64,000 nt of DNA from Spironucleus salmonicida (taxonomy: Eukaryota). Below, in pieces: positions 20,491 through 62,124 of this stretch. The DNA lies in the NCBI RefSeq assembly GCF_000497125.1, contig NC_090597.1:383797-447796 (forward strand), read 5' to 3'. The stretch's first letter is position 1. The number at the start of each line of letters is the position of its first letter. The notes under the pieces are model-generated. The model was not told where the DNA came from. It saw only the letters and a list, made by a program, of their open reading frames with translations, and did no database searches. The position numbers and the translations under genes are program-made.

Positions 20491-22132
20491 TAGGATGGCG
20501 TTTAATAGTTTTGGTATTTAATAGTTGTATTTAGTTAATTATTTAGTATTTAGATAATATTTACTAGTATAATTAGACATAGTAAGATATTTACTACTCA
20601 TTCAGAAGGAGATACTGATTAATATAATATATGCATCTGTTATAAAAATAAAAATCAATAACTGAAGGTTTGCTTATATTAAACTGAAACTATAATAGTT
20701 ATAAATTGATTAATTTACCAAGTTTCTGCATAATAGGTTAATACATAATATGATGAAAAATGAAAAATGTAAATGTAAATTATATGTATTATCAAAACTT
20801 ATCAGGTTTAATCCTAAAAGTGTTATGATAACTAATGAATATAATATTAACATAAAATATTTTTCATCTAATTGAAGTTAGTCATTCTCAGGTAAGGATA
20901 TGAAAGATTAGAATGTATATTACTTAAATTTTACAAATTTAGTTATTAAGCCTTAGATCATAGCATAGATGGTATAAGGATAGTAGAAAGTGAAAGTTCT
21001 TACCTAATAATGTAGTCAGTGAACAAAACCTATCTCTCTCACTACAGGTCATAGAAATAATAAAATTTAGTTAATGTAAGCATTGCCACTTTAGGAAAGC
21101 ATGTAATAGATAAGCTAATGATAAAGTAAGGTTTAGTAATATTCTGGCATACTGTGCTGCAAGGGGAATGCATGTATAGACTTAAGGCTGATTAGTGGAA
21201 CAGCTGGGATCTGAATAGAAATGGTGTCAACACCTAGTACTGCATCTTAAATGAACCGTAAGTAGAAACCTGCATATTATTAGTGGGAAAGTAGGATTTA
21301 CGAAGTATCTGCGCAAATATCCAAACAAAATAATACGATACCAGCCAAACTTCTGATACCTCGGTGAGAATCGGAGCATGGATAGTACCACGGGCTCTGG
21401 TACGGTTCGGAGTGGCTGGTATGCTCCTGCATATTTAGGCATCAGGCTAGCCTAGAAGAAGTAATTGAAACCCTATTAGCCATCTTCACCATTCTTTTAA
21501 TTTACCATATTAGAATGACATAAATATTTTTGAGTTTTGCAGCTTTGTTAGTCTAAATACTATCCGAATATACCATTCACTGATAACGTGGAAATATGAA
21601 TTATTTTATTATATTAAAATAATATTGTTAACTTCGGCTAACATAAAGTTGGTCTGAGTATTAATTATGTTTAAATACCCATAGGTCCAACTATTACCAG
21701 CAATCGGGTATTTAGTAAACTTACTGCTATTTCTGCAATCACAGGGGTATTATATAATATATGGATTTTTTCACTTTTAGTTTTTGCAGTATTATATTAG
21801 TATGCACAACTATTATTAAACTCAATTTAAAGATTTGCGGGTTTTAAAGATTATAAGTTACTACGCACTTTGCATAAACTATTATAACACCACTCATGCC
21901 TATAATAACAATAACATCACCATTTCTTTTGGTAAATCTACTGGGATTCCTCTACAACTACTTTAAGTAAATTTTACTAAATTATACTTATTTGTACAAC
22001 ATCAATTCCACGCTTAATAGTAAACGCTATCCATAAAATATTTCACTTCCACTTCAATACTCAAAAACACAAAACTGCTATACTCGGTAATATTCACAGT
22101 TACACTGTAGTCATGTTTTCACTTCTATCTAA

Positions 22133-23884
22133 ATGTCAAACTAGTGTACTTCTTCAATTACAAATACCTGCAGTGAAGGGACTTTCTGTCCATCAAACGC
22201 AGGAACTACTTCTACAGATTGTCTCGCGTGCAAATCAGAGTGCGCAACCTGCACAGCAGAGAACACGTGTCAAACCTGCACTAACGGGAACTTTTTAAGC
22301 GTAACCACCTGCGCCACCTGCGTTTCCGGAACCACCATGAAGTGCACCTGCGGTTCCGCTGAGAACTGCTCGACTTGTTCGGATGATATGGCAAAATGCG
22401 CTACCTGTAGTAGTGAATATGATATGGCTGCGAATCCTCCTTGTTCAGCATGCAAGGCAGGGTACTTTGAGAATATTGAAAACCCAAAAACCTGCACAAA
22501 ATGCCCAGTAACCTGCGCAACCTGTACCGCAGAAAACACCTGTCTAACATGTAAAGATGGAAACGTTTTAACTGGCAGTACCTGCGTCCCCTGCAATGCA
22601 ACCCAAATGACTGCCTGCACGTGCCAAACTACCAAAAACTGCTCAACATGTAAGTCTAGTGAGATGGACAAATGCGAAACATGTATAGGAAACTTTGACC
22701 CTTCTATCACCACTCCTTGCGAGAAATGCTTGTCAGGATTCTTCAAGGAAAACAAAGATGCGAGTGATACTTGCACGGCCTGCTCCAAGAATTGCACAAC
22801 CTGCACATCCATCTCCGTTTGCACATCTTGCAGGGACGGGTTTTTGCTTGATAACAAGAATTGCGTAGCCTGCACAGATACAAACTGCAAGACATGTCCC
22901 TCTAGCAAAGATACCTGCACGGCTTGCAAAGATAAATTTTCGGTGTAAAGCGATAAATGTGAGAAAATATGCACAGCAAATGACGGTAGCTGTGCCATGA
23001 ATCAAATCTGTGATACGATCTGCAAAGACTGCACCGGTAACTGTGCCACGTGCAAGGACGCAGTCGACAAGTGCTTGACCTGCGATCCCGGATTCATTTT
23101 AGTAGGCGATAAATGCGAAACGTGCTCTGCTGGCTGCGCGAACTGCGACGGCAATAAAGACACCTGCAAGGTTTGTAAGGACGATTTTTTCCTAAAAGAT
23201 AAAACCTGCACTGCTTGTACTGCAAACACAACAGAACAGTGTACGTGCAGTGAAGCAGCTAACTGCGCTAACTGCGATACTTCTGATAAAGCAAAGTGCG
23301 CCACCTGTATCACCGGTTACAAAAAGGCTACAGGAGATACCTGTTCTACATGCGACGACGGTTATCTGATGGTCGGAATGGTATGCACGAAATGCGGACC
23401 AAACTGCGCAACGTGCTCCTAAAGTATTGAAAAGTGCGATACCTGCGCCAGTTCGTACACAATGAGCATCAACTAGACGTGCGAGAAGGATTGTACGGAG
23501 GCACTGACAGATGGCAAGGTGTGCGTCGCCGAAAAGATAGTGGATTGTGGAGGCACCGATCAGATAACTGCATGTAAATGTGGCAATACTGGAAACTGCT
23601 TCAAATGCGACGGTTCGGATAAGGAAAAATGCGAGTCCTGCATGCGAGGATACAAATTATCAGATGACACGTGTACTACCTGCATGGACGGGTATACCGC
23701 CGTTGGTACTTTCTGCTTCCCCTAGAGCGATACGCTAAGTACCAACCTCTCTGGTGGCGCTGTTACAGGCATTATCATCGCAGTTCTAGTAGCTGTGGGT
23801 GGAGTCGCCGGTGGTATTTTTTGGTACATGAAGAAGTCAAAGCTTAATAAGGAGATTGACGAGTAGAAGTTTGTCCTGAAGTGA
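22133..23884 (+). CDS. Cysteine-rich membrane protein, 583 aa
   Basis: MSNQCTSSITNTCSEGTFCP...[45 protein letters not shown]; joins track ORFs 22337, 22997 and 23519 through TAA/TAG. Confidence 0.93.
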
Positions 23885-52421: not shown

Positions 52422-52718
52422 TTTGCGGAGAATTAATTTGAAACGGAAGCAAGACTCTTATATTTTAATATAATATTATAATTACTGTTTAAAATCACTA
52501 ATTTTTTAATTAACTTATTTATATCAAAAATTTCATTATTCTATAATCTTTAATGTAATTTTGTTATAAATGATTATAAGTATATTTTAATAGTAACATT
52601 GATAGTATTTTATTTTTGTTTAATAAGATAATAAGGATTTATATAAATATCTATTTTTATGTAGTATAAAATTAAATCATTAATATATGATTATTAATCT
52701 ACCCACTTCTCAATCCAG

Positions 52719-53726
52719 ATGTCTACTAAAGGTCCTTGGACGTCTTTAGAGCTGTCTCTTAAAACACAACTAGAGTAACTCTAAAAACATGCAGTAAACG
52801 AAGAATGCGCTGATTGCACTTCAAAAGGTCCGAGATGGGCTGTTTTCAATCACGGTATATTCGTCTGTATTAAATGTTCTGGATAACACAGAAACTTAGG
52901 AAGAGCTATTTCAAAGGTAAAATCTATAAATATGGATAGGTGGATTTAAGATTAATTTGATTAGATGATTGGTAACGAATTGGCAAATAAAATACATATG
53001 TGTAATGCGCCACCTGAAATCCAAAAACCGAAGGAAAATGAAGATCATAAGCGTGTTAAATTTATAGAATAAAAATATATGAAGAATTATTGGAGAGCTA
53101 ATGCCGAATAAGAAAGCTAAATTAGATAAGGCTTAGTCGTTGTTGCTCAACATCAGGTATAATAATAGCCTTAGCAAATATAATAGCAGCCGCAATAATA
53201 ATACTAATAACAATAATAATAATTTTAGCCTTAAGTTCAACCATAGCCTAATATGAATTAACTTATTTAACAAAATCATACTTAATAAGTTCAGCCTCCT
53301 CATATGTTCTCCCAGTAACCTATGTAACAAATACAATAGTACAATAAACCTTAATTTTAGTAATAATTATAGCAACCAATACCCTAATAACCATAATATC
53401 AGGCACCGCAACAATAATAGGTTTAATACTAACAACCTATTGTTCCATAATAGCAAGTTATCTAAAATTAAACGTTCACGTAACCTCAGCAAGAGATATA
53501 GCTTACCCCATCACCTTAGGTGCCACAAGTAGAGGATCTGCTTGATATGTTCGAGATAAAAACCACAGAACACCTTCCCCACCAACAGCCGATTATAACC
53601 ACCTAGGAAACACCCCAAAAGCCATAGTTCCACGTCCCCCAGATCAGAAAACCGACTGTGCAGCAGTCGTCAAAGCCGAAGCAGTCCGCAAACCAAAACG
53701 CGAAGCAATCACATTTGGACTGGTGA
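52719..53726 (+). CDS. ArfGAP (SMAP-like) with Gln/Pro-rich tail, 335 aa
   Basis: [35 protein letters not shown] zinc finger with catalytic Arg, [23 protein letters not shown] clathrin-box-like motif. Confidence 0.93.
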
Positions 53727-53768
53727 TTTTTTAACAGCTTTATTTTGTATTATATGATATCCATAGAA

Positions 53769-54437
53769 ATGGACTTCCTGAAAAGTGCTGATTTCTTCGT
53801 TTTCGACTTCGATGGCACGCTCTTCGACACCGTCGGCAAGGCATCCCAAATCGACCGCGAGCTATTGCACATGCACGGGGTCCCTGATTTCGACCGTAAG
53901 GCGGTCGAGGAGGAGATCAACGGCTTGAGCTGCGCGGCCTACATGGCCTATCTGCGCGCAAAGTTCACGCTCGCCGCGGACGTGCCGACGCTCCAAGCGG
54001 ACCTCTTCGCGATCGTGGCCCGGGTGTACCCCGCCTGCTCGTTCGTCCGCGGCGCGCTGCCGCTGCTCGCGCTGCTCAAGGCGCGCGGGAAAAAGGTCGG
54101 AATCGCGACCGCCGCGGGGCGCGAAATGCTGGAAATCGTCTTCCAGCACTTCCCGCAGTTCGCGCGCCTCGTGGACTGCCTGGTCACGTGCGAGGAGGCT
54201 GGCGCCTCGAAGCCGGACCCCGCGGTGTACCTGCGCTGTCTGGAGGGCCTGGGAGGGCAGGTTTCGCGCGCGGTCGTCTTCGAGGACACCGTCGCGGGGC
54301 TCCGCGGGGCGCGCGCGAGCGGGATGTTTGTCGTGGGGGTCATTTCTGATAGCGCGAACTCCGCGGCGAAGGCGGCGCTGAGCGACTGTTCTGGGACTGA
54401 TTTGGAGTGGGTTTGCGAGTTTATGGGGTGCGAGTGA
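53769..54437 (+). CDS. HAD-superfamily hydrolase, subfamily IA (beta-PGM/CbbY-like), 222 aa
   Basis: FDFDGTLFDT (motif I), IAT (II), KPDPAVY (III), VVFEDTVAGLRGARASGM (IV). Confidence 0.93.
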   Translation: MDFLKSADFFVFDFDGTLFDTVGKASQIDRELLHMHGVPDFDRKAVEEEINGLSCAAYMAYLRAKFTLAADVPTLQADLFAIVARVYPACSFVRGALPLLALLKARGKKVGIATAAGREMLEIVFQHFPQFARLVDCLVTCEEAGASKPDPAVYLRCLEGLGGQVSRAVVFEDTVAGLRGARASGMFVVGVISDSANSAAKAALSDCSGTDLEWVCEFMGCE

Positions 54438-55585
54438 GTGCATTTTGAGGGCTTTGGGGTGAAAATTCGTGCGGTAATGTGATTTGTGGGGAATAAGCAG
54501 TGGAATAGAGTAGTGCGGGGCAGTTTGTGGGCTAGATTGAGGGTTGCCGGGACTGCGATATTGAGAGGTATAGGTCGTTGTGAGTGTTTGGGCAATTTAA
54601 GAGTGCGTTCTGGCGGTAAAATTTAAAATTAGGAGTGCAAGTGCGGTGGAATGACGATGAAGTCTTGTAGGATGTGCGAAAAAGAGAAATGCGTTTAGTG
54701 CGCAGTTGGAAATAGCGTGCGTGGGGTGCTTGCGTCAGCTGTGCAGGACTGGTAGAGGGCGAAAAGTGTGATTGCGGGGCCAAATAAATTAGCTGAGCAA
54801 CTGCGGCTAAGAAAATTTATGCTGAGCATGGCATGATGGTCATGTGCTGAAAAAGGAGAATATAGTAGTTGTGCTGGCAATCCCCGGCTCTGCGTGGAAA
54901 AAATTTCGTCAAATACGATTATTTGCATCGTCATGGGAATCTTAGGTGGGATAGCTTTAATATTCGGGGATGAGGTATTTGTAATCGTCGCTAGGAAACG
55001 GAGATTCCATGTTAATCGCGATTATGGTGCAAACATTTTAGGCCAGAGCAAGGACTCGAGCGGCTAGTTATTTTGAGTGGCATTTTACCTATTTTAAATG
55101 CTATTGGCGTTAAAGCTTTTGAGGTAGATATCGGATGGTATTATATAGGAGAGGTTAAGGAAAATGCTTTACTGAGAGTTTAAGTAAAACTTTCACAACC
55201 TTCATGTATTCTAGTCGCGAGAGTTATAAGCATTATCTTGTGATTGTCATTAGCCATTGTACTGAAAAATGATTAGTTTCAGAGGATGTTAGTAGGTGAC
55301 TACTGGGTTGTATAATTGTAAATGCTGCTGCTAAATTAATACTTTTAACTTCAATTTTTGGCCCATTCTCATAAACGGATGTGAGTATGACCATTGTGCA
55401 GTAAGTTTCCATAAACAGTCAGATACATATAATGTGATAAATATCTTAATTTTAGGATATGGCTTATACGAGGATTGGGCTAGATGCGCTTTATTATAAT
55501 ATACAGGACGCATATAGTAAATGCTGCATACAAGCTATAATCATAATATGGAAATTGCGTACCTTGACGTAATTAATAAATAAGT

Positions 55586-55691
55586 TAGCACGACTAGGAA
55601 TCGAACCCAGGTCTCTTAATAACTATCTGTCATATGAATGGTCACATTGAAATGTTAAATTGCAAGAATGCTCCCACTGCACCATCGTACT
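55586..55691 (-). tRNA. Intron-containing tRNA (or tRNA-like) gene; identity uncertain, best reading tRNA-Gln(UUA)
   Basis: Acceptor AGTACGA/TCGTGCT+A, D arm GTGC-AGTGGGA-GCAT, T arm CTGGG-TTCGATT-CCTAG, anticodon stem CTTG/TAAG with ~34-35 extra nt in the anticodon loop. Confidence 0.72.
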
Positions 55692-56646
55692 GATGTGGTA
55701 TTTCCGCAACTATATAATATTTCCTTATTAGCCTAGAACGTACTTAGCTCTATATGAAAATTATGCAGAAAGTATCATGCTTCATAAATTACTTAAACTA
55801 GCCATAGACACCTATTCCTTGCATAAGGAGATCGCCATACACAAAAGCTGATTACGCTGGATCTAGGCATTTCCCTAAAAGTGTTTACTTTGCTAAATAC
55901 AATTATAATATGTATTGATACTTTTCTAAAATACGAACATGGAAACCTGTAGATGATTTATTTCATATCGAGGGTAGTTTGATTTAATATTTGGTTATAT
56001 TAACAACAAATTACCACTAAGACGCTACTGGACCGTATTTCGCCTAAGTGGTGAATCTATTTATATAAATACTACTAGTTACCGTAAATCACTAAACTAG
56101 TCTTGATAACAAACTACTACTTACTGTTTGCATAAATTTTTAAGAAGTGATATTAATTTAGCTACGAAATTATTGGTATAGCGTCTACTGTTAATAAGTT
56201 CGAATTAAATTAACTTATTATTTAACTTAACTTTAGGCACTCTTACTTAAAATATTTTGAATATTTTTACTTAAGCTATCTAGAATGGTTAATTTATAGG
56301 AAATAAGCGATTAATAGGTGTAAAATAATAAAGCTAGGTATTAAAATAATATTATTATTGTTAACTGTCTTTCAATAAATAGTGTATTAAATTAAAGCTT
56401 CCACAGTAAAAATTTATATCAAAATTTGCTTAAAACTATAACATTTGATGTAAACTTATACGTCATAACAATTACAGAATGCTTACTGATGTAAAAGTAG
56501 ATTACGTGGTTCCTATTATCTAAAGTTTCACTTTACTCTGTTCTGATAAACATACTTGCCTATTAGCATTTAAGATAAAATAAACCATTGATAGTGAGCA
56601 AAATAGTGAATAAATATAGCATTTCACAAAATAAATATTAAACCTC

Positions 56647-59600
56647 TCACTTTGCCATACTGTGCTGGAAGCTGTATTTCTTAGGGCGCTTGGCGTAAAA
56701 TATGGACACGCCGGCTATTATGCCTACCGCGGCCACCGCAGCTACCACCATACCGGTTATGTTCGCTATGAACAGCGACTCATTGCGCTATTCTTCTATC
56801 GGGACGCAGGTGTGTTCGACCATTTCAAACCCCTCGGCGCAGGAGTCACATTAATTTGCCGTGCTCAACTTCCACTCCGGAGTGCAGGCGAAGCATTTCG
56901 TGCCGCTGCAGTTTGCGCAGTTTAACATGCCGGCGCAGTTGCACGACTTCCCGCCGTTGCAAGGCTCGCAGGACTGGGAGGCACCGCACATTTCACCTAC
57001 CAAGCAGTTATCGTCCGTCTTGCACATCACCTTGCAGACCTGATCGACCAGTACGTATCCGGTAAAGCAGCCTGCGCACTTGTTCCCGTCGCAGCTCGTG
57101 CAGGTGTCGAACTGGTTCCCCTCGCAGTTGCAGAAATAGCCTGTGGATACATGCTCGCACAGAGAGCAGGAAGGTGGCAAAATACAAGCATGCCCGGTGA
57201 GGCAGAAGGACGAGTCCTGGGTGTTCTCGCAGACCCCTGTGAAGCCTGGAGGGCTCACCATGCACTGCTTGTTGATCATCACCGACCCCGCCATGCAGGT
57301 GGCGCAGCCCTTGTTGTCCGCGGTGCAGGTGGCGCAGTTCTACGCGCTGCCGCAGTTGCACTGGTTTTGGACCGCAGGGCATTCTTTCGTATCATTGGGG
57401 CCGCTGCAGTAGTGCCCCGCCGGAACATTGATGCTGCAAATCGGCACCGAGCAGGAGTTCTGAGAGTCGGGCCCGTACCCCGGCAGGCAGCTGGAGCAGG
57501 TTCCGGCAGCACTGCACGCGACACAGTTTATCGAGTCGCCGCAGTTGCAGGCTTTGTCCTATTTTCCGCAGACGTTGCACTCGCTGGCAGTCTCGTCGCA
57601 GTACTAGTTTACTGGGCAGTCAGAGGTGTCAAGGCAGCTGACTTTGGGTTGGCAGAAGCCGTTCACGAGCAGAAAGCCCTCCAGGCAGGTCTGGCAGCTG
57701 TCTTGGTACGCCGAGCAGGTCTGGCAGTTTTTGGCCTCCGAGCATTTGCATTCCTTAGCCGATGAGGTGGTGCAGAGCTCGCAGCTGGCTTCTGCATCAT
57801 TAGAAGGACAGAAGAAGCCGTTGAAGCAGGAGTTTGCTGGCCCGCATTTGTTAGGCTTGCACTCGCCCTTGAGGAGGTCCAGCCCAGCAATGCAGAGCTT
57901 GCACAGCTTATCTTCGCAGAAAATGCAGTTTTCGCGCATGGTTCCGTCGCAGTTGCACGACTTCCCACTCGTCAGCTGGTTGCAGGGAAGGCAGACCTCG
58001 CCGAACTAGCCATTGCAGAAGAACGAGTTGTTGCACCTCGAAGACTTGTTATCTTGGTCGCATATATTTTTAGTTTCATTGGTGATTTTAGCGCATTACA
58101 AAGTGGAAGGATTGAATACATGGCCGCTCGTGCACGTCTGGCAAGTGTTGGATAGAATTCCGCAGGTTTTACAGTTATCTGCCGTTCCGCAGTTGCACGC
58201 TGCGTCTACCGCAATTGAGCATGGCTCGCACTTTGCGTTTGCTGCCGAGTCAGGCGGACAGTGGTGTTGGGGAAGGCATTTGGTCGCCGAAAGATCATCC
58301 CCGCAGTTATTTTCGGCGCAGGCCCCATGTAGCAGCTCAAACCCGGTAAGGCAGCTCGTGCAGCTTCCACTGCTGCATTTGTTACAGTTCTTGATGTCGT
58401 CCCCGCTGCAGTGGCAGGATTCGTGTATCTTGATCTATCCACAGCTGACGCAAATTGCTCCAAAACTATCATTACAGTAAAAGTCGTCATTACACAATGT
58501 TGATTTACCATTCGAATCGCATATATTTCCCTTCAGACTACATTAATTCTTCGCATCTAATTCGTATCCGGCAATGCATGAACCACAGGAGTTACTGGCG
58601 CTACCGCAGGTTTGGCAGAAGTTGGCCCCGCATTAGCAGGCGTTAGATGATGATTATGTGCATAGCTAGCAGTTAACCGTGCCGCTGCTCCCATCAGGGC
58701 AGTAATTTCCCAATGCACAGGTGCTTGAGGGCCCACCAGAATTGCAGGTGTTTGTGACGCAGATGTTGTTGTACGGAAAGTAGCCGTCAATGCAGGCCTC
58801 GCAGCCACTATTCTCCGAATTACATTACTTACAGTTTTGGAACAACGCGCTTCCGCATTTGCAGACCTTTTTTATGGTCATGGTATCACAAGATACGCAT
58901 GCGTCTCCGAATTTGCCGTCGCAGAACTTTCCCGTCGTGCAAAGCGTGGAGCCGTGGGCGAAGTCGCAGATATCGCCCTTCAAAACGCATTGTTTGTTAC
59001 TAGATTACAAATCATAGCCAGAGAAGCAGGACCCGCAAGTATTAGCTATAGAACCACACGTTTAACAGCTGGGGAGAAGCCCGCACTTGCATTCCTGCTG
59101 CTAATCATGACATTTCTTACAAACCTCGGTTCCCGATGCCGCGCTGTTCGGACAGTAGTACCCGTCAATGCAGTTTTGCGTGTTTTTGGGCTCTCCGCAC
59201 ATATTGGGTACGCAAACCCCCTCGATAGCCAGATATTTATCAATGCAAACTTCGCATTAGGTCCCGTTGCATTTCTTGCAGTTTTCTTGGAGCGTCAAGT
59301 CGCAATTGCAAAACTGGCCCTCTGCAATACTCGCGCATTCCTAACAATCATCTCCAGGATCTCCATTGCACATAAACCCTACAGTACATGTAAAGGACTC
59401 CTTTAAGGGGCTGCAAACGTTCGACTTCGCCACGCAGCGCCTTTCTTTGTTGAAATCGAAGCCGGGAAGACAGGTTTTGCACGTCTTGGCATTAAGATCG
59501 CACGTCTCGCAGTTTTACAGGTAAAAGCACTAGCACGGTACCGTTTAACCAACCTCGCAGGCCTCACAAGCCGCCATTCCCTGCGTCCACGCCGGGCAGG

Positions 59601-60609
59601 CATAATTATTCAAGCACAAGCTCGTCTCGTTCGTACAATAGTTAGCTATGCAGTTGGTCCCAGTGCTAATTCGTGACATGAAAAATCCGTATCCGCATTC
59701 ATCACATTCTGCGTTTTTGCACCTAATGCAATTATAGAGCTTTCGATGTGGGTTGCAGTTACATCCTTCGCTGAGATACATCGTATCGCAAGATCGGCAA
59801 ACCAGACCGCTTTCGTCGCAGTAGAACCCTTTTGTGCAGTTTGAACTCGTGGGGTTGTTTGGGTTACCGCCTGAAATACAAGTCTTTGGGTCCTAGCAAC
59901 TTTTATATTCCTAGTTGAAAACCGTTCCAAAGGTCAAACCTTGGGCACAGGTCCTGCAGCCAACTCCGCCAACGTCGCATACCTTACATCCATCTATTGT
60001 ATCATAATCCTCACAATAGCATCGAACACCTGGGTCCGTACTCGTAGAACAGCTGTTACATTTACCGCCGCTACAATGATATCCTACGTCACAGTTATTG
60101 CTGACCTAGCAAGATTTTTAAATGATCGTACGTTCGCATTTCCCATTTACCAAGATTAATCCCACAATGCACTTTGAGCAGAAGTCGACATCACAGCTCT
60201 GGCATCCTGCTATGGCTTTACCGACGCAGTTACAGATTCCTTAAATGTTTATTCCGCCGCACTTTTGGCATTTGGCACCAGACTATTGGGGACAGAAGTA
60301 CTCGTGCGGGCAGACTGCCGAATCGTTGTTGCAGTTATCTTGGGAGAGAATACAACGGTTGTTAGACAGAGTATAACCAGTTATGCACTTGGAGCACTAG
60401 ATTCCGGTACACTCAGCACAGTTTTCTCGTAGGTTGTCTGCACAGTTGCACTTCTTTCCAGGGAGCATGTTAACGTGACATTTTTTACACATCACGTCGT
60501 CTTTATAGTTAGGAAGAGGACAATATGAGTTAGTAGCACAGTCGAGTGAGTGGAGTTGCAGATCGAGGTTTCTAGAGCAGTTTCCATAATAATTCTATGG
60601 TTCTGGCAT
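56647..60609 (-). CDS. Large cysteine-rich membrane protein, ~1320 aa
   Basis: MPEPQNYYGNCSRNL...; track ORFs 59545, 57604 and 56851 share one frame joined by TAA/TAG; C-terminal TM then FYAKRPKKYSFQHSMAK*. Not every internal codon was checked. Confidence 0.88.
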
Positions 60610-62124
60610 TTTATAATAAATAGAGTTATATGATAATTATAATTTCAGAGACTTTTGAAATATGAATAGAAATGGGTTTTTAATGGATTCATCTGCTAAT
60701 AATTTTATATTTTGATTGTATTGTGATTTTTTCCCAACAAAATTATTAATATTGCTTTAAAGTAGTTAATATTCCTATTATTTTTAGAAAATTAATTTAG
60801 TATAGTGTGTCATGTCAAAATTTAGTCAATTGAAGATAAAATGGATTTAAATTTTGAATAAACTAACTATTTCATTAATATAATAATGTTATATTTGAAA
60901 AATTTAACGTAATATATAAATTTTATATAAAAAAGATGTTTATATAAAAATAAAATACTTATATTTTTTAAAGAAATATTCTCAAATATATTTTATATTA
61001 TTCATTAAAAATAATGAATGATAGTTTCCTTTCACGTAAATTTTAATAATTATTTCGTATTATGATAAATATATTGATTTCTCTTTTTATCTCGAATTTG
61101 TTAACAATAAGAAAAAAATTATATGTCCATACTTAACTATATTATTAGAATGGGTATATGCAATTTACAGTATACTTATTATTATTTAATATATAAACTT
61201 AATCATTATTAAGCATTATTCGCTTTAAAATTGATAAAATATTGTTGCTATCTTATTTGCATCATCTAGAGCAGTATGATCTTACATTGTCGAATAATCA
61301 TATATCATAATATTAAAAAATAGTAGAAATAAGAGTTGATAAGTAGATTAAACTTATCATAACACTTTTCAGACTTAAAATTTCATCAAAATAAGTATAC
61401 TATGTATTTACATATTAATATTATTTCTCCTTATTTCTTTTAATAAGGACGATGAACGTATTCACGGTAACTAAGGTTTAAGAAAATATATTTTAATAAA
61501 TAATAATATAATACATATAAATTATATTTATATCTTTATATGTATTGTTCACTCATATTAACTATTGATTATAATACTTAAGTATACTGAATTAAAAAAA
61601 GTGCTGATAAAATTCAGCGTAATATTAATATTCCTAATAATAGTAAATAATAAAGCATTGGAAATATAAAATAACATATTAAATTATTGAATAGTTAGGG
61701 TTTTGTAAAATAAAAGTGATTTTAATCTTAGTCTCAAAGATAACAAAACCTGATATCTTATTTCTACTCATTTATTAAAAAGTTTATTAATTATTGAATC
61801 TGATTCCAAGGTACATGACCAAGGATAATCCTGCTTACGTAAATAACTAATTTATGTTAAGGAAACCGTATGTTTGCTCTATAGACAATTGTAGAATAAC
61901 TTGGACCTAAAGTAGACAGGTATTTATGAACTAAACATAAATATCCCCAGATGGTAACTACAGACACCTATTGGTTAAAAGATTAAAGAGATAACCTATA
62001 ACATTATGCTATTATAACATATTTTACAAACCATATCTAGTTAGTGGTATAACTACGAGTACCGGCAACTACTAATTAATTTATTCTTTGAATGAGTACA
62101 TTAAAACCTTTATTTTGAGGTGAT

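What the first reader, a model, noticed from the sequence alone, without database searches (positions are those of the whole stretch)
55586..55691. Intron-bearing tRNA with an irregular anticodon arm: candidate UAA-decoding tRNA-Gln
Seen: canonical acceptor (A1-U72, A73), D and T arms, but the anticodon region reads CTTG-C-A-AT-TTA-A-[34 nt]-A-TTAAG. Inference: removing 34 nt at the usual 37/38 position gives anticodon UUA, but only with a bulged C in the stem and a purine at position 32. The strict register gives UUU with a non-canonical A33 and a C31.U39 mismatch. A second loop-like word (ATTTCAA, anticodon UCA) follows immediately. Known: hexamitids need UUA/CUA tRNA-Gln to read reassigned stops, and altered anticodon stems change decoding elsewhere (Blastocrithidia tRNA-Trp). 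This could be a structurally unusual recoding tRNA or a tRNA pseudogene.
Basis: partly seen in the sequence, partly recalled or inferred. Interest (0 to 1): 0.75.

Follow-up and report, generated by a model that had tools for sequence, protein, structure and literature searches.

The report
Intron-bearing tRNA with odd anticodon stem
This is a real tRNA gene with an intron, in a protist that reads two stop codons as glutamine; its anticodon stem carries one extra letter, and it most likely reads UAA, though that is not proven.

Summary
Window 55586-55691 (minus strand) is a 106-nt tRNA gene: Rfam tRNA 37.2 bits against a cut-off of 29. Acceptor, D and T arms are canonical. About 34 nt interrupt an irregular anticodon arm.

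The host reads TAA and TAG as glutamine. In four genes of the window, TAA is the commonest Gln codon and all four end in TGA.

Short-read contigs reproduce the window's letters exactly. They also hold a second, diverged version at similar depth. Its tRNA body has 0 of 50 substitutions, against 20 of 123 in intron plus 5' flank (p=7e-4). Its intron is about 11 nt shorter. So the insert behaves as an intron and the gene is under constraint. An assembly error is unlikely.

The best reading has an extra pyrimidine in the 5' strand of the anticodon stem, a loop with U33 and A37, and anticodon UUA, decoding UAA as Gln. In the second version the intron's 3' end forms a four-pair helix and a 3-nt bulge in this register.

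No spliced, CCA-tailed or charged product was seen. No other tRNA of this genome could be compared. The UUU register and a decaying gene remain possible. Interest is moderate.

The parts
55586..55691 (-). tRNA gene, 106 nt including the insert (idx 1 = 55691, idx 106 = 55586; idx = 55692 - position)
   Evidence: Rfam RF00005 at 37.2 bits, model 1-71 of 71. ARAGORN -i places one tRNA at c[55586,55691].
55655..55691 (-). 5' exon in the favoured register (idx 1-37): acceptor 5' strand, D arm, anticodon stem 5' strand with the extra C, loop positions 32-37
   Evidence: Sequence. In the second version, idx 1-28 show no substitution (X3 contig) and the depth bins show no deleted letter over idx 1-27.
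55673..55684 (-). A-box-like stretch (idx 8-19, TGGTGCAGTGGG)
   Evidence: Sequence. The consensus is recalled, not tested.
55662..55662 (-). Extra nucleotide C (idx 30). It is a bulge between the G.U and A-U pairs of the anticodon stem in the favoured register. In the strict register it is a C31.U39 mismatch.
   Evidence: Sequence and enumeration. Short-read contigs carry the same letter (X3 record 12 has 0 differences). In the X3 diverged contig it is U.
55656..55658 (-). Proposed anticodon UUA (idx 34-36). U33 is at 55659 and A37 at 55655.
   Evidence: Inference from register. No substitution is listed here in the X3 diverged contig.
55621..55654 (-). Intron, 34 nt (idx 38-71) in the favoured register. 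It would be 35 nt (55621-55655) in the strict register.
   Evidence: The second version has 5 substitutions here and about 11 deleted letters, all between 55616 and 55664 by table rows and depth bins. Rfam leaves 46 inner letters unaligned.
55586..55620 (-). 3' exon (idx 72-106): position 38, anticodon stem 3' strand TTAAG, 4-nt variable region, T arm, acceptor 3' strand, discriminator A
   Evidence: Sequence. 55590-55619 is unchanged in the second version, and idx 72 is A>U there.
55597..55607 (-). B box GGTTCGATTCC

Best explanation
This is a functional, intron-bearing nuclear tRNA gene of a hexamitin-type diplomonad. Its mature anticodon is UUA, so it reads UAA (perhaps also UAG) as glutamine.

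In this reading the anticodon stem has five pairs (C-G, U-A, U-A, G.U, A-U). One extra pyrimidine is bulged out of the 5' strand between the fourth and fifth pair. The loop is A32-U33-UUA-A37-A38. A 34-nt intron sits at the usual 37/38 position.

RNA polymerase III would transcribe the gene from its internal A and B boxes. The tRNA splicing endonuclease would cut after A37 and before A38. A ligase would join the halves, and CCA would be added.

Shown: the gene, the insert, the host's code, the exactness of the letters, and conservation of the tRNA body in a second diverged version.

Inferred: the register and hence the anticodon, splicing, charging with Gln, and any role of the bulge. I take the bulge to be tolerated rather than adaptive.
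For: 1. It is a real tRNA: 37.2 bits against a cut-off of 29, full model length, with perfect acceptor, D and T arms.

2. The host needs such a tRNA. NCBI table 6 opens 35 ORFs of at least 250 aa, against 1 under table 1. An ArfGap domain scores E=3e-33 only when TAA/TAG are read through, and a Giardia-VSP-like protein is present. In four genes the counts are TAA 60, TAG 37, CAA 45 and CAG 34, and all four end in TGA.

3. The letters are not an assembly slip. Short-read contigs cover 55396-55615 and 55590-55780 with 0 differences in X3 and 0 and 1 in X1.

4. The gene is under constraint. A second version sits at similar depth (about 325 against 331 in X1; 26 against 18 in X3). It has 0 of 50 substitutions in the tRNA body outside the anticodon arm. 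Intron plus 5' flank have 20 of 123 (Fisher one-sided p=6.7e-4). About 11 intron letters are deleted, and depth bins show none deleted in idx 1-27.

5. Register. Of the 12 excisions with at least 4 stem pairs, none gives both U33 and R37. Only the bulge register does.

6. In the X3 diverged contig the three inner stem letters change in ways that keep this structure: G.U to A-U, bulge C to U, A-U to G.U.

7. In the second version (X1 and X3 agree) the intron's 3' end changes at idx 64, 67, 69 and 72. Idx 66-69 then form four Watson-Crick pairs with idx 32-35, followed by a 3-nt bulge next to the stem. This is the geometry described for the central helix of canonical tRNA introns, where the first two anticodon letters pair with the intron. 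It gives 4 of 4 pairs in the UUA register and 3 of 4 in the UUU register.

8. The loop letters idx 32-43 carry no listed substitution in the X3 contig. The region from which ARAGORN draws its anticodon is changed.
Against: 1. No spliced form was seen. There are no joints in any of the four runs laid, all of which are contigs.

2. The anticodon-arm part of the exons has 4 of 18 substitutions in the X3 contig. That is no fewer than neutral sequence (p=0.51). The arm itself shows no excess conservation by count.

3. In the window's own copy the intron pairs poorly with positions 32-35 (2 of 4), and position 32 faces G at intron -3. The constrained fold instead pairs idx 35-38 with idx 69-72, which puts both splice sites inside a helix.

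4. The second version is known only from difference tables with hidden rows (35 substitution rows and 15 gap rows not shown). X1 does not report the three inner-stem changes that X3 reports. The two runs also differ at 55731. My attempt to reconcile them found no solution. A hidden deletion inside idx 28-43 cannot be excluded.

5. A1-U72 and A73 are not what I recall for eukaryotic tRNA-Gln (recalled, not tested).

6. The downstream flank has only a T3 run.

7. Energy models do not favour any cloverleaf. The cloverleaf is 2-4.6 kcal/mol above the minimum for both registers. The precursor fold scores z=-0.89.

8. No other tRNA of this genome could be read, so Gln identity rests on the anticodon alone.
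Confidence: 0.47

Rival explanations
1. Same functional intron-bearing tRNA, but in the strict register. The anticodon stem has 4 pairs with a pyrimidine.U mismatch at 31-39. The loop is A32-A33-UUU-A37-A38, the intron is 35 nt, and the anticodon is UUU (Lys).
For: It needs no inserted letter and keeps standard numbering, so a covariance or ruler count from the body would give it. Lys codons are frequent: AAA 87 and AAG 80 in four genes. All changes seen in the second version are compatible with it. tRNA-Lys(UUU) carries an intron in yeast (recalled).
Against: It requires A at position 33 in every version seen, where U is nearly universal (established knowledge, recalled). It leaves a mismatch next to the loop. 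In the second version the intron pairs with positions 32-35 at only 3 of 4 in this register, against 4 of 4 in the other (my reading).
Confidence: 0.13
2. A tRNA gene that no longer decodes. It would be a decaying copy or a tRNA-like Pol III unit. Its body would be kept by promoter function or by gene conversion from paralogues, while its anticodon arm drifts.
For: The anticodon-arm exon letters change as fast as neutral sequence (4 of 18 against 20 of 123, p=0.51). The window copy lacks the 32:-3 pair and a bulge-helix-bulge-like fold. There is no T4 run downstream. No canonical arm is possible. No spliced form was seen. Extra contig depth over about 55587-55618, and a contig with a different downstream flank, suggest further family members that could donate sequence.
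Against: The acceptor stem, which the promoter does not need, is unchanged, like the rest of the body (0 of 50, p=6.7e-4). The outer stem pairs and the six loop letters carry no listed substitution. The three inner-stem changes keep pairing in the bulge register. Conversion from a canonical paralogue would be expected to repair the arm as well.
Confidence: 0.27
3. ARAGORN's solution: tRNA-Asn(GUU), 69 nt, with a 37-nt intron at a non-canonical site inside the loop.
For: It is the only call ARAGORN -i makes. It gives a 5-pair stem.
Against: It uses position 26 as a stem letter. It leaves a 3-nt variable region and has A at position 33. The letters that would form its anticodon loop (idx 68-73) are changed at idx 69 and 72 in the second version, while the body is unchanged. 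No bulge-helix-bulge flanks that site.
Confidence: 0.02
4. The extra letter is an assembly or sequencing error in an otherwise canonical gene.
For: Single-letter indels are common in long-read assemblies (general knowledge).
Against: Contigs of two short-read runs carry the window's letters without any gap across the gene (X3 records 11 and 12 with 0 differences; X1 records 2 and 4 with 0 and 1). The X3 diverged contig also keeps a letter there. The runs may be the data the window was polished with, so this is not fully independent.
Confidence: 0.02

Closest known systems
tRNA-Gln(UUA)/(CUA) of organisms with UAR=Gln codes (hexamitin diplomonads, Tetrahymena and other ciliates)
   Same: The host reads TAA/TAG as Gln. 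The favoured register gives a cognate UUA anticodon. Such tRNA genes are reported for hexamitins: a passage in PMC1805757 says they were 'identified previously', and a passage in PMC5304391 names a tRNA-Gln(CUA) gene in Spironucleus salmonicida.
   Different: This gene has an intron and an extra letter in the anticodon stem. The passages I read mention neither. Its acceptor end (A1-U72, A73) differs from what I recall for eukaryotic tRNA-Gln. I could not see the sequences of those genes. The primary paper, PMC450153, is not held, and supplements are closed.
Canonical eukaryotic and archaeal intron-bearing pre-tRNAs (intron at 37/38, A-I pair, bulge-helix-bulge)
   Same: The insert lies one letter 3' of the proposed anticodon. 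In the second version the intron's 3' end gives a four-pair helix with positions 32-35 and a 3-nt bulge, as described in the PMC4090602 passages.
   Different: The window's own copy forms only 2 of the 4 pairs and lacks the 32:-3 pair. The stem that the endonuclease would measure from carries a bulge.
[quoted passage not shown]
   Same: It is a natural tRNA that reads a stop codon with a cognate anticodon, and its anticodon stem is broken by one unpaired nucleotide (PMC7609411 passages).
   Different: It is archaeal. Its stem has 6 pairs and its unpaired A is on the 3' strand. It has no intron and is charged by PylRS. Deleting the unpaired nucleotide did not change translation efficiency (same passage).
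4-bp anticodon-stem tRNA-Trp(CCA) of Blastocrithidia, Condylostoma and Blepharisma
   Same: An altered anticodon stem in a lineage with reassigned stop codons (passages of bioRxiv 10.1101/2023.10.09.561518; search listing with abstract opening of PMC13092985).
   Different: There a near-cognate anticodon reads UGA thanks to the short stem. Here the anticodon would be cognate, and the irregularity is an extra or mismatched letter next to the loop.

Membership tests
tRNA (Rfam RF00005) | Score at or above the curated gathering score over the full model | tested here: met
   37.2 bits against 29, model 1-71 of 71. Missed with the fast filters.
tRNA (Rfam RF00005) | 7-bp acceptor stem, D arm with G18 G19, T arm with the TTCGA loop | tested here: met
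tRNA (Rfam RF00005) | 5-bp anticodon stem closing a 7-nt loop with U33 and a purine at 37 | tested here: inconclusive
   None of the 12 single excisions with at least 4 stem pairs gives both U33 and R37. The feature is met only if one 5'-strand letter is bulged.
Intron-bearing eukaryotic pre-tRNA (canonical 37/38 intron) | Insert evolves freely while the exons are kept | tested here: met
   In the second version the intron has 5 substitutions and about 11 deleted letters, and the body has 0 of 50 substitutions.
Intron-bearing eukaryotic pre-tRNA (canonical 37/38 intron) | Pair between position 32 and intron position -3, with the 3' splice site in a 3-nt bulge | tested here: inconclusive
   The window copy has A facing G, so the feature is not met. 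The second version has A-U plus three further pairs and a 3-nt bulge, so it is met there (read by hand).
Intron-bearing eukaryotic pre-tRNA (canonical 37/38 intron) | Spliced product exists | not testable with these tools
   Only contigs were available. They show no joints, and contigs cannot show rare or small RNAs.
tRNA-Gln(UUA) of UAR=Gln organisms | Host translates UAA as Gln | tested here: met
tRNA-Gln(UUA) of UAR=Gln organisms | Mature anticodon UUA | tested here: inconclusive
   It depends on the register.
tRNA-Gln(UUA) of UAR=Gln organisms | Body related to the organism's tRNA-Gln(UUG/CUG/CUA) | not testable with these tools
   No whole genome is held. The window has no other tRNA. Metagenome scans gave no relative: 0 hits, and 28 loci, none with this acceptor stem.
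tRNA-Gln(UUA) of UAR=Gln organisms | Charged with glutamine | not testable with these tools
   This needs an experiment.
Short-anticodon-stem near-cognate stop readers (Blastocrithidia tRNA-Trp type) | Near-cognate anticodon plus a 4-bp stem | tested here: not met
   The candidate anticodons are UUA (cognate to UAA) or UUU (not near-cognate at the relevant position).

The most novel reading that the evidence does not exclude
The extra pyrimidine in the anticodon stem is a conserved, functional feature of this organism's UAA-decoding tRNA-Gln. This intron-bearing family may be the main UAA decoder. The bulge would tune decoding, for example by helping one UUA tRNA read both UAA and UAG or compete with release factor. 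That would be a second, structurally different case of anticodon-stem remodelling tied to stop-codon reassignment.
Probability: 0.1. Interest if true: 0.75.

Novelty: new variant of a known kind. Interest (0 to 1): 0.4.

Why it matters
Hexamitin diplomonads read UAA and UAG as glutamine. In the window's genes UAA is the commonest Gln codon, so the tRNA that reads it is central to their translation.

A UAA decoder made from an intron-bearing precursor with a bulged anticodon stem would be an unusual natural tRNA. It would bear on two open topics. One is how anticodon-stem geometry affects stop-codon reading. The other is how a eukaryotic splicing endonuclease, which measures from the tRNA body, handles an irregular stem.

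If the gene is instead a drifting copy, it mainly warns that automatic tRNA callers give three different anticodons here (UUA, UUU, GUU).

Tried and rejected
- ARAGORN without introns found 0 genes. Rfam gathering mode on the whole window found 0 matches. Both are filter or option effects.
- ARAGORN -i called Asn(GUU). I rejected it; see the rival explanations.
- Free and constrained folds of the precursor and of the in-silico spliced forms do not discriminate. The cloverleaf is never the minimum, as expected for AU-rich unmodified stems.
- No whole genome is held, so no other tRNA of this organism could be compared.
- Keeling & Doolittle 1996 (PMC450153) is not held.
- Metagenome scans: the exact 5' half gave 0 hits. 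The D-arm plus B-box pattern gave 28 loci. These carry tRNAs of mixed identity (Trp, Gln, Gly, Thr, Met, Asp, Arg, Pro, Lys, Val). None has this acceptor stem, so they are not relatives.
- Exact look-up of three window proteins: 0 of 3 are in the collection.
- A paper search for the 5' half as a string found 0 papers.
- Paper searches on diplomonad tRNA introns, UUA anticodons and anticodon stems returned no paper that describes this feature in what I read: search listings with abstract openings, plus passages. Supplementary tRNA tables could not be opened.
- Sequencing runs: no RNA holder is listed. Four rows are only guessed to be RNA.
- Laying X1, X3, X5 and X6 gave no joints. The guessed-RNA contigs cover the unspliced gene and its flanks at depth 3-8. 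That may be DNA or read-through and says nothing on splicing.
- A brute-force attempt to find one second-version sequence that fits both the X1 and X3 difference tables gave 0 solutions. Either my assumptions about the hidden rows are wrong or the two contigs differ.
- The weak skipping-rope RNA hit (27.4 bits against 36.7) lies inside the HAD gene and is taken as chance.

Full report
**What is there.** The minus strand of window 55586-55691 is a 106-nt tRNA-like gene. Below, idx counts along the RNA, with idx = 55692 minus the window position.
- The acceptor stem has 7 pairs, with A1-U72, U3.G70 and discriminator A.
- The D arm is GTGC/GCAT with the loop AGTGGGA.
- The T arm is CTGGG/CCTAG with the loop TTCGATT.
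- The variable region has 4 nt.
- Between them lies CTTGCAATTTAA, then 34 nt, then ATTAAG.

Rfam's tRNA model scores 37.2 bits against a gathering score of 29, over its full length. The E-value is 1e-6 locally and 3.3e-4 for the whole window. The model leaves the inner 46 letters unaligned. ARAGORN without the intron option and Rfam with fast filters miss the gene. It is the only tRNA in the window.

**Host and setting.** NCBI table 6 (TAA/TAG = Gln) opens 35 ORFs of at least 250 aa, against 1 under the standard table. Read this way, the neighbours are:
- an ArfGAP at 52659-53726 (Pfam ArfGap, E=3e-33) with a Q-rich tail holding 56 TAA/TAG codons;
- a HAD hydrolase at 53754-54437;
- cysteine-rich membrane proteins, one of which matches the Giardia VSP family.

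In four genes the Gln codon counts are TAA 60, TAG 37, CAA 45 and CAG 34. All four genes end in TGA. This is the hexamitin diplomonad code (passages of PMC5304391). The DNA runs that hold the window have 12-13 million letters of contigs each. That is in the range of the 12.9-14.7 Mb assemblies of Spironucleus salmonicida (table passages). The species is an inference. The tRNA sits in a gene-poor stretch between the HAD gene and a cysteine-rich protein gene.

**The irregular arm.** I enumerated every single excision that leaves a 5+7+5 anticodon arm and a variable region of 3-6 nt. Twelve of them have at least 4 stem pairs. None of the 12 has both U33 and a purine at 37. Three readings remain:
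- A, the strict register. The stem is CUUGC/UUAAG with a C.U mismatch at 31-39. The loop is AAUUUAA, so position 33 is A and the anticodon is UUU. The intron is 35 nt.
- B, the bulge register. The pairs are C-G, U-A, U-A and G.U, then an unpaired C, then A-U. The loop has A32, U33, UUA, A37 and A38. The intron is 34 nt.
- C, ARAGORN's call of Asn(GUU). The intron is 37 nt at a non-canonical site, position 33 is A, position 26 is drawn into the stem, and the variable region has 3 nt.

Energy calculations do not decide between them.

**Evidence from sequencing runs.** One search found 8 coded runs of one organism. Four are DNA runs of one sample. Four are guessed to be RNA, from another study. 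I laid X1 and X3 (DNA) and X5 and X6 (RNA?) on 55200-56100 at 80% likeness. All four are contigs. There are four results.

1. Contigs identical to the window cover the gene. X3 records 11 and 12 have 0 differences, and X1 records 2 and 4 have 0 and 1. The extra letter is therefore not an assembly slip. These runs may be the window's own source data.

2. A second, diverged version is present at similar depth: about 325 against 331 in X1, and 26 against 18 in X3. It may be an allele or a duplicated segment. Passages of PMC9509377 say 19% of the S. salmonicida assembly is duplicated and that regions near cysteine-rich protein genes are variable. The X3 contig over 55590-55780 has 24 substitutions and 13 gap letters, and all 24 substitutions are listed:
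   - 15 in the 89-nt 5' flank;
   - 5 in the intron;
   - 1 at idx 72 (position 38);
   - 3 at idx 29-31;
   - none in the 50 body letters outside the anticodon arm.

   Against intron plus 5' flank (20 of 123), the body's 0 of 50 gives Fisher p=6.7e-4. From the depth bins (my arithmetic on table 2), about 8-9 deleted letters lie in 55634-55664 and none in 55665-55726. The intron is therefore about 11 nt shorter and the 5' exon is intact. The downstream flank has 14 substitutions and 13 gap letters in 55396-55615. The insert behaves as an intron and the tRNA body is under constraint.

3. At the intron's 3' end both runs agree on idx 64 deleted, idx 67 U>A, idx 69 G>U and idx 72 A>U. Read by hand, idx 66-69 then pair with idx 32-35 through four Watson-Crick pairs. 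Three unpaired U follow, directly before the stem. This is the central helix and 3' bulge described for canonical tRNA introns, in which the first two anticodon letters pair with the intron (PMC4090602 passages). It fits register B at 4 of 4 and register A at 3 of 4. The window's own copy forms only 2 of 4 in register B and lacks the 32:-3 pair. Its constrained fold pairs idx 35-38 with idx 69-72 instead.

4. In the X3 contig, idx 29-31 change from GCA to three other letters. In register B these changes keep both pairs (G.U to A-U and A-U to G.U) and turn the bulge from C to U.

**Caveats on this evidence.**
- X1 does not report the three inner-stem changes, although its contig has the same totals of differences.
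- X1 and X3 also differ at 55731.
- 35 substitution rows and 15 gap rows are hidden.
- My attempt to reconcile the two tables found no solution. There may be more than two versions, and a hidden deletion within idx 28-43 cannot be excluded.
- By count, the anticodon-arm exon letters (4 of 18) change as fast as neutral sequence (p=0.51).
- No joint, meaning no spliced form, appears in any run. Contigs could not be expected to show one.
- The guessed-RNA contigs carry the unspliced gene with its flanks at depth 3-8, which is uninformative.
- One X1 contig matches from 55587 and has a different downstream flank containing a T4 run. Extra depth over about 55587-55618 suggests further genes that share the 3' exon. 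I could not read them.

**Verdict.** The gene is real, the insert is an intron, and the gene, or at least its body, is maintained by selection in at least two versions. Given that, the register that preserves U33 and a purine at 37 is the more likely one. U33 is close to universal (recalled knowledge). The geometry of the second version's intron agrees modestly.

I put UUA (Gln, reading UAA) at about 0.47, UUU with A33 at about 0.13, and a non-decoding or decaying gene at about 0.27. ARAGORN's Asn call and an assembly error get about 0.02 each.

Nothing here supports the idea that the bulge changes decoding. In the one natural precedent I read, M. alvus tRNA-Pyl, removing the unpaired stem nucleotide did not matter (PMC7609411 passage).

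**Novelty.** Cognate UAR-reading tRNA-Gln genes are known in hexamitins. An intron plus an extra stem letter in such a gene is not described in anything my searches returned. I read search listings with abstract openings and passages. Supplementary tRNA tables, public annotations and the 1996 primary paper were out of reach. I therefore call it a new variant of a known kind, of moderate interest until the mature RNA is sequenced.

Noticed in passing
window 53754-54437 (+): A HAD-family hydrolase (Pfam HAD_2, 1.1e-20) has 64% G+C against about 35% around it, and no TAA/TAG Gln codon. It looks compositionally foreign and is a candidate lateral transfer.
   Followed up: partly
window 52659-53726 (+): An ArfGAP has a long Q-rich tail in which 56 Gln are encoded by TAA/TAG (40 TAA, 16 TAG) against 33 by CAA/CAG.
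   Followed up: partly
window 55396-55942: DNA runs hold two versions of this intergenic stretch at similar depth, differing by about 10% substitutions plus many indels. X1 and X3 contigs also disagree with each other at 55731 (C, T or G), which suggests more than two versions.
   Followed up: partly
window 55587-55618: One X1 contig shares only the tRNA's 3' part. It then runs into a different downstream flank that starts with C and holds a T4 run. Extra depth over this stretch suggests more genes of the same tRNA family elsewhere in the genome.
   Followed up: no
window 55913-56100: The only DNA contig listed here differs from the window at 7 places (for example 56032-56034, 56057, 56063, 56069). 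The guessed-RNA run X6 shows six of these differences, and X5 only the one at 56063.
   Followed up: no
window 56647-60813 (-) and 21596-23884 (+): Large cysteine-rich membrane proteins with CXXC repeats and a C-terminal transmembrane segment. One of them matches the Giardia VSP family weakly (3.9e-8). The upstream part of the second ORF looks non-coding.
   Followed up: partly
window 54086-54155 (+): A weak match to skipping-rope RNA (27.4 bits, below the gathering score of 36.7) lies inside the HAD gene. It is probably chance.
   Followed up: no
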